Shown one piece after another: positions 42,394 through 46,577 of a stretch of 64,000 nucleotides of DNA (positions are counted from its first letter, which is position 1; each line of letters opens with the position of its first letter). The stretch lies in the NCBI RefSeq assembly GCF_030384885.1, contig NZ_CP128613.1, one strand, 5' to 3'. This DNA comes from Escherichia coli (lineage in GTDB: Bacteria; Pseudomonadota; Gammaproteobacteria; Enterobacterales; Enterobacteriaceae). The notes beneath the pieces are model-generated. The model saw only the letters and a program-made list of their open reading frames with translations, had not been told where the DNA came from and searched no databases. The position numbers were made by a program, and so were the translations under genes.

Positions 42394-42855
42394 ATGACAC
42401 ACGATAATAAATTGCAGGTTGAAGCTATTAAACGCGGCACGGTAATTGACCATATCCCCGCCCAGATCGGTTTTAAGCTATTGAGTCTGTTCAAGCTGAC
42501 CGAAACGGATCAGCGCATCACCATTGGTCTGAACCTGCCTTCTGGCGAGATGGGGCGCAAGGATCTGATCAAAATCGAAAATACCTTTTTAAGTGAGGAT
42601 CAGGTTGATCAACTGGCGTTATATGCACCGCAAGCCACGGTTAACCGTATCGACAACTATGAAGTGGTGGGTAAATCGCGCCCCAGTCTGCCAGAGCGCA
42701 TCGACAATGTGCTGGTCTGCCCGAACAGCAACTGTATCAGCCATGCCGAACCGGTTTCATCCAGCTTTGCCGTGCGAAAACGCGCCAATGATATCGCGCT
42801 CAAATGCAAATACTGTGAAAAAGAGTTTTCCCATAATGTGGTGCTGGCCAATTAA
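42394..42855 (+). CDS. pyrI: Aspartate carbamoyltransferase regulatory subunit PyrI
   Basis: 153 aa, C-terminal zinc domain with four cysteines (CPNSNC...CKYCEKEF). Confidence 0.97.
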
Positions 42856-42872
42856 TTGCGGTTGGTAATAAA

Positions 42873-42904
42873 AGTCTGGCTCCCTATAATGAGCCAGACT
42901 TTTT
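42873..42904 (+). terminator. Rho-independent terminator after pyrI
   Basis: Stem AGTCTGGCTC / GAGCCAGACT followed by TTTT. Confidence 0.7.
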
Positions 42905-42927
42905 ACCGCTGTAATAAAGGAGAAATC

Positions 42928-43314
42928 ATGAGCAAAACTATCGCGACGGAAAATGCACCGGCAGCTATCGGTCCTTACGTACAGGGCGTTGATCTGGGCA
43001 ATATGATCATCACCTCCGGTCAGATCCCGGTAAATCCGAAAACGGGCGAAGTACCGGCAGACGTCGCTGCACAGGCACGTCAGTCGCTGGATAACGTAAA
43101 AGCGATCGTCGAAGCCGCTGGCCTGAAAGTGGGCGATATCGTTAAAACCACCGTGTTTGTGAAAGATCTGAACGACTTCGCAACCGTAAACGCTACCTAC
43201 GAAGCGTTCTTCACCGAGCACAATGCCACCTTCCCGGCACGTTCTTGCGTTGAAGTTGCCCGTCTGCCGAAAGACGTGAAGATTGAGATCGAAGCGATCG
43301 CTGTTCGTCGCTAA
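42928..43314 (+). CDS. ridA: Enamine/imine deaminase RidA (YjgF)
   Basis: 128 aa from MSKTIATENAPAAIGPYVQG; RBS AAGGAG; ORF-track upstream extension trimmed. Confidence 0.95.
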   Translation: MSKTIATENAPAAIGPYVQGVDLGNMIITSGQIPVNPKTGEVPADVAAQARQSLDNVKAIVEAAGLKVGDIVKTTVFVKDLNDFATVNATYEAFFTEHNATFPARSCVEVARLPKDVKIEIEAIAVRR

Positions 43315-43380
43315 TCTCTTTCAAAAAGATAATCCAGGTTTCGCGCCTGGATTATCTGATTCAACCACGGAGGGTTGAAG

Positions 43381-43836
43381 ATGGCTAAATCCCGTTTCAC
43401 AGATAAGCAAATTGCTGAAATTTTACAGCGGTCAAAAGAGGGGGCATCTAATAAGGAGCTTTGTGAACACTATCAATTTAGCGTTAACACGCTGCGGCGC
43501 TGGCAAGAACAGCACGCTGACGGCATCAGAAGCGAATTAAAAAAAATAGAATCTAAAGCACAGATCGTCTTTCTGCTTTTCATTGCTATTGTCATTATAC
43601 TCACGCTTATATTTGGTAAACCTACAGGTGGATGGGCAATACCGCCTTTATTACTCTATTGTGTTTATTATATCCGCCTGTATCGCAACATCTCCGCCAG
43701 ACATATAAAAAAAGAAGACATTTTTCTCTCTCGTTCTGTTAATAACAGCTATAGCGCCCTTTATAATTTGAGCTGGACGTTTATTTGTTTTTTTATTTTT
43801 GCAGTAATCTATTTTTTTATTCAGGTGTTTTCGTAA
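43381..43836 (+). CDS. Hypothetical small protein: transposase-like N-terminal HTH fused to AT-rich hydrophobic C-terminus
   Basis: ATG 43381 with RBS GGAGGG; N-terminus FTDKQIAEILQRSKEGASNKELCEHYQFSVNTLRRWQ resembles IS-family OrfA HTH; C-terminal half predicted transmembrane and AT-rich. Confidence 0.5.
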   Translation: MAKSRFTDKQIAEILQRSKEGASNKELCEHYQFSVNTLRRWQEQHADGIRSELKKIESKAQIVFLLFIAIVIILTLIFGKPTGGWAIPPLLLYCVYYIRLYRNISARHIKKEDIFLSRSVNNSYSALYNLSWTFICFFIFAVIYFFIQVFS

Positions 43837-43880
43837 CAGACTGACCTGAAAGAGTATTTCAGGCCAGCTTCATCACTTGC

Positions 43881-46577
43881 TTACTGCCAGCCGTAACGAC
43901 GGCTATAGAACCCTTTCACCAACTGGGTTAACGTCATATACCCTGCCAGAATCGCAACCAGCCACGGGAAATAGCTTAACGGCAGCGCCTGCAGTTGCAG
44001 ATAACTGGCCAACGGCGAAAACGGCAATGCGATCCCGACTATCATCACAATCACGGTCATGATCATTAACGGCCACGATGCACAGCTCTGAATAAACGGT
44101 ACACGACGGGTACGGATCATATGCACAATCAGCGTTTGCGACAGTAATCCCACCACAAACCAGCCCGACTGGAACAGCGTTTGCGTTTCCGGCGTGTTGG
44201 CATGGAATACCCACCACATCAGGCAAAACGTCAGAATATCGAAGATCGAACTGATCGGTCCGAAGAAGATCATAAAGCGCCCCAAATCCGCCGGATTCCA
44301 ACGCTGAGGCTTTTGAACTTGCTCGTCGTCGACGTTATCAAACGGGATCGCCACCTGTGACACATCGTACAGCAGGTTCTGGATCAGTAAGTGTAAAGGC
44401 AGCATCGGCAGGAAGGGCAAGAAAGCACTCGCCACCAGCACGCTGAACACATTACCGAAGTTAGAACTCGCCGTCATTTTGATGTATTTCAGCATGTTGG
44501 CGAAAGTGCGACGTCCCTCAATAACCCCCTCCTCCAGCACCATCAGGCTTTTTTCCAGCAGGATGATATCAGCCGCTTCACGGGCAATATCTACCGCGCC
44601 GTCCACAGAAATGCCGATATCCGCAGCGCGTAAGGCGGGAGCATCATTAATACCATCGCCCATAAAGCCAACCACATGCCCTTCGCGCTTTAGCAAGGTC
44701 ACGATGCGTTCTTTATGCATCGGCGTCAGGCGAGCAAACAGCGTGGTGCGCTGTGCAAGATTTGCCAGTTCGTCGTCAGATAGCGTTTCAATATCACTAC
44801 CAATGACCACCTCTCCCGCGTCCAGTCCCACTTCATGGCACACTTTCGCCGCCACTAACTCGCTGTCGCCAGTAAGGATTTTCACGGTAATGCCACTCGC
44901 TTTTAATGCCTTCAGTGCCGGAGCTGTTGTCTCTTTCGGCGGATCAAGGAAAGCAATATATCCTTCGAGGATCAGGTCGGATTCATCCGCCCGCTGGTAA
45001 TCCCCTTCACGTGCTGGCAGGTATTTCGTCGCCACCGCAACCACGCGCAGCCCCTGACGATTCAGCGTATCAGTAACCCGCTTAATCTTACGCAGTATGA
45101 TGTCATCAAGCGGCACAATCTCACCATTGTGACGCACCTGCGAACACACATTGAGGATTTCCTGCAATGCGCCTTTGCAAACCAGTTGATGATGTTCGGT
45201 ATTCTCTGCCACTACCACCGACATCCGGCGACGCTCGAAATCAAACGGAATCTCATCAATTTTTTGCCAACGACTGGCCAGCGAGCGCGCTGACTCTTCA
45301 TCCGTACCTTCGAGCACCGCTGTATCAAGCAGGTTTTTAAGTCCGGTCTGATAATGACTGTTCAACCACGCGCTATGCAGCACCCGTTCGCTGGTTTTAC
45401 CGGAGATATCGGTATGATTCTCCAGCACAATTTTATCCTGCGTCAGGGTGCCGGTTTTATCAGTGCACAGAATATCCATAGCGCCAAAGTTCTGAATGGC
45501 ATCCAGATGTTTGACGATCACTTTCTGTTTCGACAGCTTTACGGCACCACGCGCCAGCGTCGAAGTGACAATCATCGGCAACATTTCTGGCGTTAAGCCT
45601 ACCGCGACCGAAAGTGCGAACAGTGCCGCTTCCCACCAGTCACCTTTGGTGTAACCGTTGATCAGCAACACCACCGGAGCCATCACCAGCATAAAGCGAA
45701 TCAGCAGCATACTGACGCGGCTAATCCCTTGCTGAAAGGCATTCGGCTCGCTTTCCTGCTCACTAACACGCCCCGCCAGTTGACCAAACCAGGTGTTGGC
45801 TCCTGTAGCAATCACCATTGCTTGTGCCGTGCCGCTCACCACGGTGGTACCCATAAAACACAGGGTGTCGCACTCCAGCGGATTGCTGTGCTCCGGCTGG
45901 CGAGTGGTAGCAGCTTTTTCCACGGGCAGAGACTCACCGGTTAACGACGCCTGAGCGACAAACAGATCCCGCGCCTGCAAGATACGTAAATCTGCCGGGA
46001 TCATATCCCCCGCCGCCAGTTTTATAATATCGCCGGGCACTAGTTGGTCTATCGGAATTTCCAGCCAGCCATTTTCACCTTTATCGTTAATTACGCGCAG
46101 TACCGTCGCGGTATTACTGACCATCGCTTTCAGGGCATCTGCCGCTTTGGTGGAACGAGCTTCCTGAATAAAGTTCAGCAACGTAGAAATAGCGACCATT
46201 AGCGCGATAACACCTGCGGCAAATAAATCTTCCGTGGCGTAAGAAATAGCACCGAGAATGGTGAGCAAAATATTAAAGGGGTTGCGATAGCAGACCCATA
46301 AATGTACCCACCACGGCGACGGTTGTTGCGCGGGTAATTTATTTTCACCATGTTGTTCGCGGGCAGATTCCACTTCCGCCTGATTTAACCCTTCCGGATG
46401 GGTATTGAACGTTTTCCATAATTCCTGTTCTGGCATCACCGCCATTTTCAGGCAATGCGCACTTAAGGACGGCGGGACCGCCGTATTCACTGTCTGCTGC
46501 GCGCCAGGCAATGGATCGCGATGAACCAGACGGGAAGGTAAATGGCGAATGAGCCGGGTAAAAATTTCTTTAAACAT
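43881..46577 (-). CDS. mgtA: Mg2+-importing P-type ATPase MgtA
   Basis: 898 aa, P-type ATPase motifs DKTGTLT and GDGINDAPAL. Confidence 0.97.
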   Translation of the reverse strand: MFKEIFTRLIRHLPSRLVHRDPLPGAQQTVNTAVPPSLSAHCLKMAVMPEQELWKTFNTHPEGLNQAEVESAREQHGENKLPAQQPSPWWVHLWVCYRNPFNILLTILGAISYATEDLFAAGVIALMVAISTLLNFIQEARSTKAADALKAMVSNTATVLRVINDKGENGWLEIPIDQLVPGDIIKLAAGDMIPADLRILQARDLFVAQASLTGESLPVEKAATTRQPEHSNPLECDTLCFMGTTVVSGTAQAMVIATGANTWFGQLAGRVSEQESEPNAFQQGISRVSMLLIRFMLVMAPVVLLINGYTKGDWWEAALFALSVAVGLTPEMLPMIVTSTLARGAVKLSKQKVIVKHLDAIQNFGAMDILCTDKTGTLTQDKIVLENHTDISGKTSERVLHSAWLNSHYQTGLKNLLDTAVLEGTDEESARSLASRWQKIDEIPFDFERRRMSVVVAENTEHHQLVCKGALQEILNVCSQVRHNGEIVPLDDIILRKIKRVTDTLNRQGLRVVAVATKYLPAREGDYQRADESDLILEGYIAFLDPPKETTAPALKALKASGITVKILTGDSELVAAKVCHEVGLDAGEVVIGSDIETLSDDELANLAQRTTLFARLTPMHKERIVTLLKREGHVVGFMGDGINDAPALRAADIGISVDGAVDIAREAADIILLEKSLMVLEEGVIEGRRTFANMLKYIKMTASSNFGNVFSVLVASAFLPFLPMLPLHLLIQNLLYDVSQVAIPFDNVDDEQVQKPQRWNPADLGRFMIFFGPISSIFDILTFCLMWWVFHANTPETQTLFQSGWFVVGLLSQTLIVHMIRTRRVPFIQSCASWPLMIMTVIVMIVGIALPFSPLASYLQLQALPLSYFPWLVAILAGYMTLTQLVKGFYSRRYGWQ

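What the first reader, a model, noticed from the sequence alone, without database searches (positions are those of the whole stretch)
43381..43836. Chimeric ORF between ridA and mgtA: transposase-type HTH fused to AT-rich membrane segment
The ORF has a strong RBS (GGAGGG) and an N-terminal 55 aa resembling the HTH of IS-family OrfA transposase proteins, then switches to a hydrophobic AT-rich C-terminal half (43560-43836). No DDE transposase domain and no terminal inverted repeats are present. It looks like an IS remnant exapted into a small membrane protein, or a truncated IS read-through.
Basis: inference. Interest (0 to 1): 0.45.

Follow-up and report, generated by a model that had tools for sequence, protein, structure and literature searches.

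The report
Membrane-anchored transposase-type HTH protein gene
The ORF between ridA and mgtA is a real, conserved but often lost gene for a small inner-membrane protein whose DNA-binding head was borrowed long ago from an insertion-sequence protein; databases wrongly call it a transposase, and its function is untested.

Summary
Window 43381-43836 (+) is an intact 151-aa ORF with GGAGGG six bases upstream. It has a Pfam HTH_Tnp_1 head (aa 2-51, 36 bits, above the curated cut-off) and a hydrophobic tail with three predicted membrane helices. There is no DDE domain and there are no IS-type terminal repeats.

It is not a local chimera or a decaying IS. Intact ~150-aa homologues with the same two-module design lie just downstream of ridA in Escherichia, Salmonella salamae, Citrobacter, Klebsiella spallanzanii, Superficieibacter, Pseudescherichia and Phytobacter. 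A second clade lies beside tRNA-Ser or an SMR pump gene. Every intact protein recovered with the membrane module alone also has the HTH.

Within Escherichia, dN/dS is 0.15-0.23 in both halves, and dS resembles that of the flanking genes. The gene is single-copy, always at this locus, in 442 of 5426 complete E. coli genomes. K-12 has REP-like palindromes there instead. One relative carries an ERIC insertion in the gene.

Best reading: an old domestication of an IS3-OrfA-type HTH, working as a membrane-tethered DNA-binding protein, like transmembrane transcription regulators such as BcrR. The identity is well supported. The mechanism is inferred. Moderate interest.

The parts
43320..43364 (+). 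19-nt-arm inverted repeat directly after the ridA stop. It is probably the ridA terminator-like hairpin, with a weak T tract. The ORF has no promoter-like site of its own behind it.
   Evidence: I1, 84% complementary; no promoter-like site between ridA and the ORF; hairpin AAAGATAATCCAG...CTGGATTATC kept in Escherichia, K. spallanzanii, Citrobacter FP75; K-12 has a hairpin with different stem bases.
43369..43374 (+). Shine-Dalgarno GGAGGG, 6 nt before the ATG
   Evidence: A GGAG-type site at the same spacing is conserved in all 15 aligned orthologous upstream regions.
43381..43836 (+). CDS, 151 aa, annotated 'transposase' (WP_001130089.1) in RefSeq. It belongs to an uncharacterised HTH + 3-TM family.
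43384..43533 (+). HTH_Tnp_1 (IS3 OrfA-type) helix-turn-helix, aa 2-51. The invariant residues include the predicted third (recognition) helix L38-R39-R40-W41.
   Evidence: AF2 helices 8-19, 24-31, 35-78
43504..43563 (+). Connector, aa 42-61. It continues the recognition helix into TM1, with a conserved hydrophobic stripe (W41, H45, I49, L53, I56, A60) that could form a dimer interface.
   Evidence: single helix 35-78; conservation. The dimer role is inference.
43537..43544 (+). A8 homopolymer in codons L53-K54-K55. It is Escherichia-specific, and database frameshift variants diverge exactly here.
   Evidence: variants P0013 and P0028
43564..43617 (+). Predicted TM1, aa 62-79
   Evidence: (family mean KD 2.64)
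43636..43683 (+). Predicted TM2, aa 86-101. It is less hydrophobic, especially in E. coli.
   Evidence: mean KD 1.33; helix 80-105
43684..43770 (+). Conserved basic loop, aa 102-130 (family motif R-x-iS-x-x-hI-x-x-e-x-x-fLsRsG-x-G-x-x-N-a-f-Y-x-x-sW). It is predicted to be cytoplasmic.
   Evidence: 5.3 K+R vs 1.8 D+E on average; R102, R118, Y128, W132 invariant
43771..43827 (+). Predicted TM3, aa 131-149
   Evidence: mean KD 2.0; helix 126-150
43841..43867 (.). 11-nt-arm hairpin in the 44-nt spacer between the ORF stop and the convergent mgtA stop. It is a possible shared transcript end but lacks a canonical T tract.
   Evidence: I6; not called as a terminator

Best explanation
Window 43381-43836 encodes a genuine 151-aa inner-membrane protein.

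Architecture. A cytoplasmic three-helix HTH of the IS3-OrfA type (aa 2-51) has a third helix that runs on without a break, through an amphipathic connector, into TM1. TM2, a conserved basic cytoplasmic loop and TM3 follow. There is essentially no periplasmic domain (a 6-aa loop and a 2-aa tail).

Family. It is the Escherichia orthologue of an uncharacterised two-module family seen only in Enterobacteriaceae among named genomes. The family has been inherited at the ridA-proximal position in at least seven genera. It is kept by moderate purifying selection but is often lost.

What it is not. It is not a transposase and not part of an insertion sequence. It is an old domestication of a transposase-type DNA-binding domain.

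Inferred mechanism. It acts as a membrane-tethered DNA-binding protein, that is, a transmembrane transcription regulator in the broad sense, closest in design to BcrR. It probably dimerises through the connector and TM helices. It binds a specific DNA site at the inner face of the membrane. Any signal would be sensed within the bilayer or by the cytoplasmic loop.

Shown here: gene reality, architecture, homology of the head, conservation, synteny and selection. Inferred: topology, dimerisation, DNA binding and a regulatory role.
For: - Intact ORF with a conserved RBS. An open frame by chance has probability about 4e-5.
- HTH_Tnp_1 scores above Pfam's cut-off in 16 of 17 members. The nearest non-family relatives are IS3-family OrfA N-termini at 35-40% identity.
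- Full-length ~150-aa homologues occur in E. albertii, E. marmotae, an unnamed Escherichia sp., S. enterica salamae, Citrobacter, K. spallanzanii, Superficieibacter, P. vulneris and Phytobacter. Wherever the context was read, they lie in the order pyrI-ridA-ORF.
- Between genera the ORF is 40-59% identical, while PyrI is 85-98% and MgtA 83-97%.
- Within Escherichia, dN/dS is 0.15-0.23 overall. By half it is 0.11-0.27 (HTH) and 0.16-0.35 (TM). Binomial tests against neutrality give p = 2e-8 to 7e-6.
- dS of the ORF (0.25-0.35) is close to that of the flanks (0.08-0.63), which indicates vertical descent.
- A profile of the membrane half retrieves only proteins that also carry the HTH, apart from truncated or frameshifted forms.
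- Invariant residues occur in both modules.
- The AF2 model has mean pLDDT 78.6 and pTM 0.65, with helices 8-19, 24-31, 35-78, 80-105, 111-118 and 126-150.
- The charge distribution fits an N-in, loop2-in topology.
- The protein meets the published working definition of a TTR: a predicted DNA-binding domain plus a TM region (PMC10269533).
Against: - There is no expression, localisation or DNA-binding data, and no paper mentions the protein.
- No promoter-like site lies between ridA and the ORF. The ORF sits just behind a terminator-like hairpin, so expression may be low or depend on read-through.
- There is no conserved partner gene, operator or target operon that would suggest what it regulates.
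- TM2 is only weakly hydrophobic in E. coli, so the topology is uncertain.
- The gene is dispensable. It is absent from 92% of complete E. coli genomes, and relatives show an ERIC insertion and frameshifts.
- dN is about ten times that of the neighbouring genes.
- No structural analogue of the whole protein was found in the PDB or in viral models.
Confidence: 0.45

Rival explanations
1. Conflict or defence role. The membrane-anchored HTH captures or blocks incoming foreign DNA (phage, plasmid) at the inner membrane, or otherwise acts in exclusion, rather than regulating host genes.
For: - Patchy accessory distribution with frequent loss.
- Fast protein evolution relative to the flanks: omega is about 10x higher, and identity between genera is 40-59% against 83-98% for PyrI and MgtA.
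- Clade-B and C. youngae copies lie at tRNA-Ser sites or beside a truncated P4-type integrase fragment, which are typical island hot spots.
- The gene stands alone, with no conserved partner.
- The HTH also resembles small-terminase HTHs weakly.
Against: - PADLOC gives only a weak match confined to the HTH, to a model labelled DrmC (E = 6e-4).
- There is no phage or island context at the ridA locus.
- dS matches the flanks, so descent there is vertical rather than by horizontal turnover.
- No viral structural analogue was found.
Confidence: 0.15
2. Transposition modulator. As an OrfA look-alike, the protein binds the terminal repeats of IS3-family elements, or titrates their OrfA/OrfAB, and damps their activity.
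For: - The HTH is homologous to IS3 OrfA.
- In IS3-family elements, OrfA proteins are known regulators of transposition (established knowledge of IS911 and IS2).
- A conserved hydrophobic stripe follows the HTH where OrfA has its leucine zipper.
Against: - The closest IS3-family matches are Sphingomonas, Ralstonia and Burkholderia elements at only 35-40% identity.
- tblastn of 72,556 plasmid records returned only 10 matching records at E <= 1e-3, and none was an enterobacterial IS OrfA. No cognate resident IS is therefore evident.
- The gene has been kept for a long evolutionary time at one chromosomal site, whatever the IS content.
Confidence: 0.1
3. The function lies in the membrane module. 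The protein would be a small membrane protein that modulates a neighbouring transporter, in the way MgtS and MgtR act on MgtA/MgtC, with the HTH secondary.
For: The gene is convergent with and 44 nt from mgtA in E. coli, and adjacent to or near mgtA in six other genera. The TM2-loop-TM3 region holds invariant residues.
Against: - An Escherichia sp. keeps an intact gene although mgtA-treRBC is deleted, giving ridA-ORF-nrdD.
- In one lineage a TRAP transporter lies between the ORF and mgtA.
- Clade-B and C. youngae copies are nowhere near mgtA.
- The HTH is the better conserved half: 0.78 vs 0.60 mean identity to consensus.
Confidence: 0.07
4. Non-functional relic: a truncated IS3-family orfA fused by deletion to random AT-rich spacer, open by chance or only recently formed.
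For: - IS-type HTH with no DDE domain and no IRs.
- AT-rich sequence.
- Absent from most E. coli.
- Occasional frameshifted, truncated or ERIC-disrupted copies.
Against: - Intact orthologues occur in at least 10 genera at 40-59% identity.
- dN/dS is 0.15-0.23 in both halves, with p <= 7e-6.
- The RBS is conserved.
- The chance of an open frame is about 4e-5 per sequence.
Confidence: 0.03

Closest known systems
IS3-family OrfA proteins (Pfam HTH_Tnp_1, e.g. the orfA products of IS911, IS2 and IS407-group elements)
   Same: Homologous N-terminal HTH: 36 bits, above the Pfam cut-off, and 35-40% identity to IS3-family OrfA N-termini. A helical segment with a hydrophobic stripe follows the HTH, where OrfA has its leucine zipper.
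   Different: There is no orfB or DDE domain, no terminal inverted repeats and no target duplication. The gene is single-copy and fixed at one chromosomal position across genera. The C-terminus is a 3-TM membrane module that IS proteins lack.
Transmembrane transcription regulators (TTRs) without an extracytoplasmic sensor, typified by BcrR of Enterococcus faecalis (N-terminal HTH + 4 TM)
   Same: The design is the same: a small protein with an N-terminal cytoplasmic HTH followed directly by several TM helices and no sizeable external domain. It meets the TTR working definition of PMC10269533.
   Different: The HTH is of the transposase (HTH_Tnp_1) type, not XRE. No sequence relationship was detected. 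There is no adjacent target operon such as bcrABD. DNA binding and regulation are untested.
ToxR/CadC-type membrane-bound activators
   Same: A cytoplasmic DNA-binding head tethered to the inner membrane in a single polypeptide.
   Different: Those proteins use an OmpR-type winged helix, a single TM helix and a large periplasmic sensor domain. This protein has three TM helices and no periplasmic domain.

Membership tests
IS3-family insertion sequence / transposase | N-terminal HTH_Tnp_1 DNA-binding domain | tested here: met
   E = 8.4e-9, 36 bits vs cut-off 24.1; 16 of 17 family members.
IS3-family insertion sequence / transposase | DDE (rve) catalytic domain, normally orfB in the -1 frame reached by frameshifting | tested here: not met
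   Pfam lists no rve/DDE match even at E <= 10. NCBIfam IS3 transposase scores 16 bits vs cut-off 160. Only 44 nt separate the stop from mgtA. A -1 shift at the A8 run hits a stop after 3 codons.
IS3-family insertion sequence / transposase | Terminal inverted repeats flanking the element | tested here: not met
   no inverted-repeat pair brackets the ORF, only local hairpins and A/T-run matches.
IS3-family insertion sequence / transposase | Mobility: several copies or variable positions within and between genomes | tested here: not met
   One copy, found between ridA and mgtA wherever the context was read, in 442 of 5426 E. coli genomes. The single 'plasmid' hit carries the same chromosomal block. 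The gene is syntenic in at least 7 genera.
IS3-family insertion sequence / transposase | Leucine zipper after the HTH (OrfA multimerisation) | tested here: inconclusive
   A conserved hydrophobic stripe spans aa 38-60 on one long helix, but it runs into TM1. No coiled-coil prediction or multimer model was made.
Transmembrane transcription regulators (TTR, definition of PMC10269533) | Predicted DNA-binding domain | tested here: met
   The definition was read.
Transmembrane transcription regulators (TTR, definition of PMC10269533) | At least one predicted transmembrane region | tested here: met
   Hydropathy of TM1 and TM3 and long helices in the AF2 model. No dedicated TM predictor was available.
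Transmembrane transcription regulators (TTR, definition of PMC10269533) | DNA-binding domain on the cytoplasmic side | tested here: inconclusive
   The charge distribution favours N-in: the segment before TM1 and loop 2 are K/R-rich, and loop 1 is only 6 aa. This is a prediction only, and TM2 is weakly hydrophobic.
Transmembrane transcription regulators (TTR, definition of PMC10269533) | Sequence-specific DNA binding and control of transcription | not testable with these tools
   Needs EMSA, DAP-seq, ChIP-seq or RNA-seq.
BcrR-type one-component membrane sensors | XRE-type HTH homologous to BcrR | tested here: not met
   Pfam shows transposase/homeodomain-like HTH models and no HTH_3/XRE match. 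The resemblance is one of design only.
BcrR-type one-component membrane sensors | Adjacent operon under its control | tested here: not met
   No partner gene is conserved across contexts: ridA/mgtA, ridA/TRAP transporter, ridA/nrdD, tRNA-Ser/SMR, LamB/NemA-like.
Uncharacterised enterobacterial HTH_Tnp_1 + 3-TM family (defined here) | About 150 aa; HTH, connector, TM1, TM2, basic loop with the fLsRsG...Y..sW motif, then TM3; invariant L27, C28, Y31, F33, S34, L38, R39, R40, W41, H45, L53, I98, R102, R118, Y128, W132 | tested here: met
   The window protein carries every invariant residue.

The most novel reading that the evidence does not exclude
This could be the first recognised family in which an insertion-sequence OrfA DNA-binding head has been permanently fused to a dedicated three-helix membrane module. 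The result would be a membrane-resident DNA reader. It would either couple gene expression to the state of the bilayer without any external sensor, or intercept foreign DNA or IS ends at the membrane. On this reading the gene is kept as a presence/absence polymorphism in E. coli, and an Escherichia-specific A8 tract could switch between tethered and soluble HTH-only forms.
Probability: 0.2. Interest if true: 0.6.

Novelty: new variant of a known kind. Interest (0 to 1): 0.35.

Why it matters
1. Annotation. Hundreds of RefSeq entries call this protein 'transposase', with the GO term 'DNA transposition'. It has no catalytic domain, no IS ends and no mobility, so counts of transposases and IS elements in Enterobacteriaceae are slightly inflated.

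2. Evolution. It is a clean, datable example of domestication of a mobile-element DNA-binding domain. The fusion predates the split of several enterobacterial genera and has stayed at one locus.

3. Regulation. If the protein binds DNA, it would add a transposase-type HTH and a new conserved TM module to the still mostly uncharacterised class of transmembrane transcription regulators.

4. Testability. The presence/absence polymorphism in E. coli (8% carriers, with REP elements in the rest) provides natural isogenic-like contrasts for testing function.

Tried and rejected
- IS ends: repeat search over 43200-44000 found no bracketing inverted repeats.
- DNA similarity of the ORF to anything else in 5426 E. 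coli genomes at blastn sensitivity: only the same locus. There is thus no resident IS of origin.
- Rfam over 42800-44000: only sub-threshold eukaryotic miRNA/snoRNA noise.
- PADLOC: one weak HTH-only match to a model labelled DrmC. PHROGs: weak transposase and small-terminase HTH matches. Neither was taken as evidence of function.
- Pfam for the C-terminal half: only sub-threshold, low-complexity TM matches (DUF2207_C, Renin_r, DUF3139).
- PDB by sequence profile, PDB by Foldseek and viral models: no significant whole-protein match, only local HTH superpositions. The afdb50 library was unavailable.
- Profile of the membrane half alone against 5.8 billion proteins: no HTH-less or differently fused relatives.
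- Literature: no paper found for the accession numbers, for the ridA-mgtA 'transposase', or for membrane-anchored or domesticated IS3 OrfA proteins.
- Promoter scan: nothing between ridA and the ORF. The internal match at 43739-43767 is no more than the shuffles give.
- Error to flag: my RidA query was translated one base out of frame. Its identity values are meaningless, and only the positions were used. ridA was re-analysed in the correct frame.
- The A8 tract as an IS3-style frameshift signal was rejected as a family feature. It occurs only in Escherichia, and the -1 frame ends at once.

Full report
**1. The observation**

The sequence shows an ORF from ATG 43381 to TAA 43834-43836 on the + strand, 151 codons long. 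GGAGGG lies at 43369-43374, six bases upstream. The ORF sits between ridA (42928-43314, +) and the convergent mgtA (43881-46577, -).

On the opposite strand and in the other frames there are only ORFs of 27-43 codons. Only 3.5e-5 of composition-matched shuffles stay open over 151 codons.

Pfam places HTH_Tnp_1 on residues 2-51 (E = 8.4e-9, 36 bits, curated cut-off 24.1). It reports no DDE/rve domain. NCBIfam's IS3, IS481 and IS630 transposase models touch only the first ~50 residues, at 13-16 bits against cut-offs of 100-224.

From residue 62 the protein is strongly hydrophobic. GC falls from 0.43 to 0.34, against about 0.52-0.53 in ridA and mgtA. No inverted repeats bracket the ORF. The only notable ones are a hairpin just after ridA (43320-43364) and one between the ORF and mgtA (43841-43867).

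**2. Distribution in E. coli**

RefSeq annotates the ORF as 'transposase' (WP_001130089.1). It occurs in 442 of 5426 complete E. coli genomes. It is essentially single-copy, and wherever the context was read it lies between ridA and mgtA.

There are two main alleles. One is at least 99% identical to the window (about 42 genomes). The other is about 92% identical (about 397 genomes; WP_001118337.1).

The one hit on a record called a plasmid carries the whole chromosomal block bdcR-pyrBI-ridA-ORF-mgtA-treR.

The remaining ~5000 genomes, K-12 included, have a 205-bp spacer with no trace of the ORF. It holds a different ridA hairpin and two palindromes that I recognise as REP elements (the REP identification rests on my own knowledge of the consensus).

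One strain, WB61, retains only the last 94 nt of the ORF, with ambiguous bases at the junction.

**3. A conserved family, not a local chimera**

An exhaustive HMMER search of 1.8 billion representative proteins found full-length ~150-aa relatives at 42-53% identity. A scan of one genome per species then named the organisms:
- E. albertii
- an Escherichia sp.
- Klebsiella spallanzanii
- Superficieibacter electus
- three Citrobacter
- Pseudescherichia vulneris
- Phytobacter massiliensis
- Leclercia
- an Enterobacter sp.

E. marmotae, Salmonella enterica subsp. salamae and further Leclercia species were added by the word-indexed searches.

All of these ORFs are intact and collinear.

The order pyrI-ridA-ORF holds in Escherichia, Salmonella salamae, Citrobacter NCU1 and FP75, K. 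spallanzanii, Superficieibacter, P. vulneris and Phytobacter. It is usually followed by mgtA. Across these genera the ORF is 40-59% identical, while PyrI is 85-98% and MgtA 83-97% identical.

A second clade is 40-44% identical to the E. coli proteins. It comprises Leclercia, Enterobacter kpr-6 and metagenomic contigs. These copies lie beside tRNA-Ser genes and/or an EmrE-like SMR gene.

The C. youngae copy is clade A by sequence (73% to Citrobacter NCU1). It nevertheless lies after an SMR gene and a truncated P4-type integrase fragment. Its homology to the NCU1 locus is confined to the coding sequence. The gene has therefore moved at least once, without recognisable element ends.

A profile of the membrane half alone retrieved only proteins that also carry the HTH, apart from truncated or frameshifted forms. 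The two modules are a fixed pair.

**4. Selection**

Within Escherichia, Nei-Gojobori dN/dS is 0.15-0.23 overall, leaving aside the two near-identical E. albertii alleles, which differ at only 7 sites. By half it is 0.11-0.27 for the HTH part and 0.16-0.35 for the membrane part. Binomial tests against neutrality give p = 2e-8 to 7e-6.

The ORF's dS is 0.25 between the two E. coli alleles and 0.35 to E. albertii. This is in the range of the flanking pyrI, ridA and mgtA (0.08-0.16 and 0.28-0.63). That argues for vertical descent with the locus. Its dN, however, is about ten times higher than that of the flanks.

The Shine-Dalgarno site is kept in all 15 aligned upstream regions, including the non-syntenic ones.

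Invariant residues fall in both modules: L27, C28, Y31, F33, S34, L38, R39, R40, W41 and H45 in the HTH, and I98, R102, R118, Y128 and W132 in the membrane part.

The compositional contrast that suggested a chimera is small in GC3 (0.41 vs 0.35) and disappears in other genera.

**5. Anatomy**

AlphaFold2 with the 17-sequence alignment gives mean pLDDT 78.6 and pTM 0.65. The predicted helices are 8-19, 24-31, 35-78, 80-105, 111-118 and 126-150.

The recognition helix thus continues without a break through a connector (aa 42-61) into TM1. The connector carries a conserved hydrophobic stripe (W41, H45, I/V49, L53, I/L/M56, A60).

Family-wide mean hydropathy is 2.64 for TM1, 1.33 for TM2 and 2.0 for TM3. 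Loop 1 is six residues long. Loop 2 carries on average 5.3 K+R against 1.8 D+E. By the positive-inside rule, the HTH and loop 2 are cytoplasmic and the C-terminus is outside. There is no periplasmic domain.

TM2 is only marginally hydrophobic in E. coli, so this topology is a prediction.

**6. Most likely mechanism**

Shown: the gene encodes a conserved membrane protein with a transposase-type HTH.

Inferred: the HTH binds DNA, because the residues of the predicted third (recognition) helix are invariant. The protein dimerises through the connector and TM helices, as IS3 OrfA proteins do through their zipper. It acts from the membrane on a specific DNA site.

This is the design of transmembrane transcription regulators. 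The survey PMC10269533 defines them as a DNA-binding domain plus a TM region, and reports that about 57% have no other recognisable domain. The nearest characterised analogue in layout is BcrR (HTH + 4 TM, no external domain). There is no sequence relationship with BcrR and no adjacent target operon.

I put about 0.9 on the identity of the gene and about 0.35-0.4 on the regulator mechanism.

**7. Rivals**

- A defence or exclusion role fits the patchy distribution, the fast protein evolution and the hot-spot contexts of clade B. It has no direct support.
- An OrfA-mimic role in IS control is weakened by the lack of any close enterobacterial IS relative. The best IS3-family matches are from Sphingomonas, Ralstonia and Burkholderia at 35-40% identity.
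- A role as a partner of MgtA is weakened by an Escherichia sp. that keeps the gene after losing mgtA-treRBC, and by the non-syntenic copies.
- The dead-relic reading is contradicted by sections 3 and 4.

**8. Caveats**

- Expression is unproven.
- No promoter-like site lies between ridA and the ORF, which begins 17 nt after a terminator-like hairpin with a poor T tract. Transcription probably depends on read-through from ridA. In Leclercia, a promoter-like site lies 20 nt upstream, behind the tRNA-Ser terminator.
- The gene is dispensable and decays in some lineages. There are frameshifted and truncated database variants, and an Escherichia sp. has a 125-bp ERIC element inserted at codon ~78 (the ERIC identification rests on its match to the ERIC1R/ERIC2 primer sequences, from my own knowledge).

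**9. Novelty and verdict**

No paper or curated family describes this protein. No Pfam model covers the membrane module. No solved or viral structure resembles the whole protein.

It is best filed as a new variant of a known kind: a membrane-tethered HTH protein built on a domesticated IS3-OrfA head.

For a specialist it is a tidy mis-annotation and a neat domestication case, not a major surprise. Interest is 0.35.

Noticed in passing
L018 4001-4578 (Escherichia sp. MOD1-EC7003): The orthologous gene is split at about codon 78 by a 125-bp insertion. Its core (GTGAATCCCCAGGAGCTTACAT / AAGTAAGTGACTGGGGTGAGCG) matches the ERIC1R and ERIC2 primer sequences, so it is an ERIC/IRU element inserted at a TATA site inside a coding sequence.
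   Followed up: partly
window 43537-43544: An A8 homopolymer in codons L53-K54-K55 is conserved in all five Escherichia alleles examined but not in most other genera (Citrobacter FP75 has A7 there). The database frameshift variants P0013 and P0028 diverge exactly here. A -1 shift in the window allele would give an HTH-only product ending ...LKKNRI*. This could be a mutational or slippage hot spot, or simply sequencing error in homopolymers.
   Followed up: partly
L003 1716-1920 (E. coli K-12, equivalent of window 43315-43880): In about 92% of complete E. coli genomes the whole ORF is replaced by a 205-bp spacer with two REP-like palindromes (a BIME-like arrangement) and different hairpins. No remnant of the ORF remains.
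   Followed up: partly
L031 2929-3138 (E. coli WB61): A deletion variant keeps the RBS and start region and the last 94 nt of the ORF. The junction contains ambiguous bases (N), so an assembly artefact cannot be excluded. PGAP marks it as an incomplete pseudogene.
   Followed up: partly
L030 (NZ_AP023207.1, 'plasmid' pMTY18781-2, 93.8 kb): A record deposited as a circular plasmid carries the chromosomal block bdcR-bdcA-yjgH-pyrLBI-ridA-ORF-mgtA-mgtL-treR. It is either an excised chromosomal segment or a mis-assigned contig.
   Followed up: no
L015 3393-4453; L021 2913-4447; L027 382-1547; L019 3778-4486: Non-syntenic copies lie next to tRNA-Ser genes and/or an EmrE-like SMR efflux gene. In C. 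youngae a truncated P4-type integrase fragment runs into the gene's start. The SMR adjacency occurs with both sequence clades, which could indicate a shared hot spot or a functional link.
   Followed up: partly
L005 4457-5136 and L018 (Escherichia sp.): In these genomes mgtA-mgtL-treRBC is missing, and ridA-ORF is followed by nrdD-nrdG-cybC. Only a ~30-codon scrap of the mgtA N-terminus remains (L005 4522-4611).
   Followed up: no
P0018 (258 aa): This protein consists of five tandem HTH_Tnp_1-like repeats (KPRHxEEQILxILQQAKxG...FYxWRKKY), an unusual array of transposase-type HTH units. Its origin was not looked up.
   Followed up: no
window, whole 64 kb: The overall GC of the window is 0.484, below that of ridA and mgtA (0.52-0.53). 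Other AT-rich, possibly acquired, segments probably lie elsewhere in the window.
   Followed up: no
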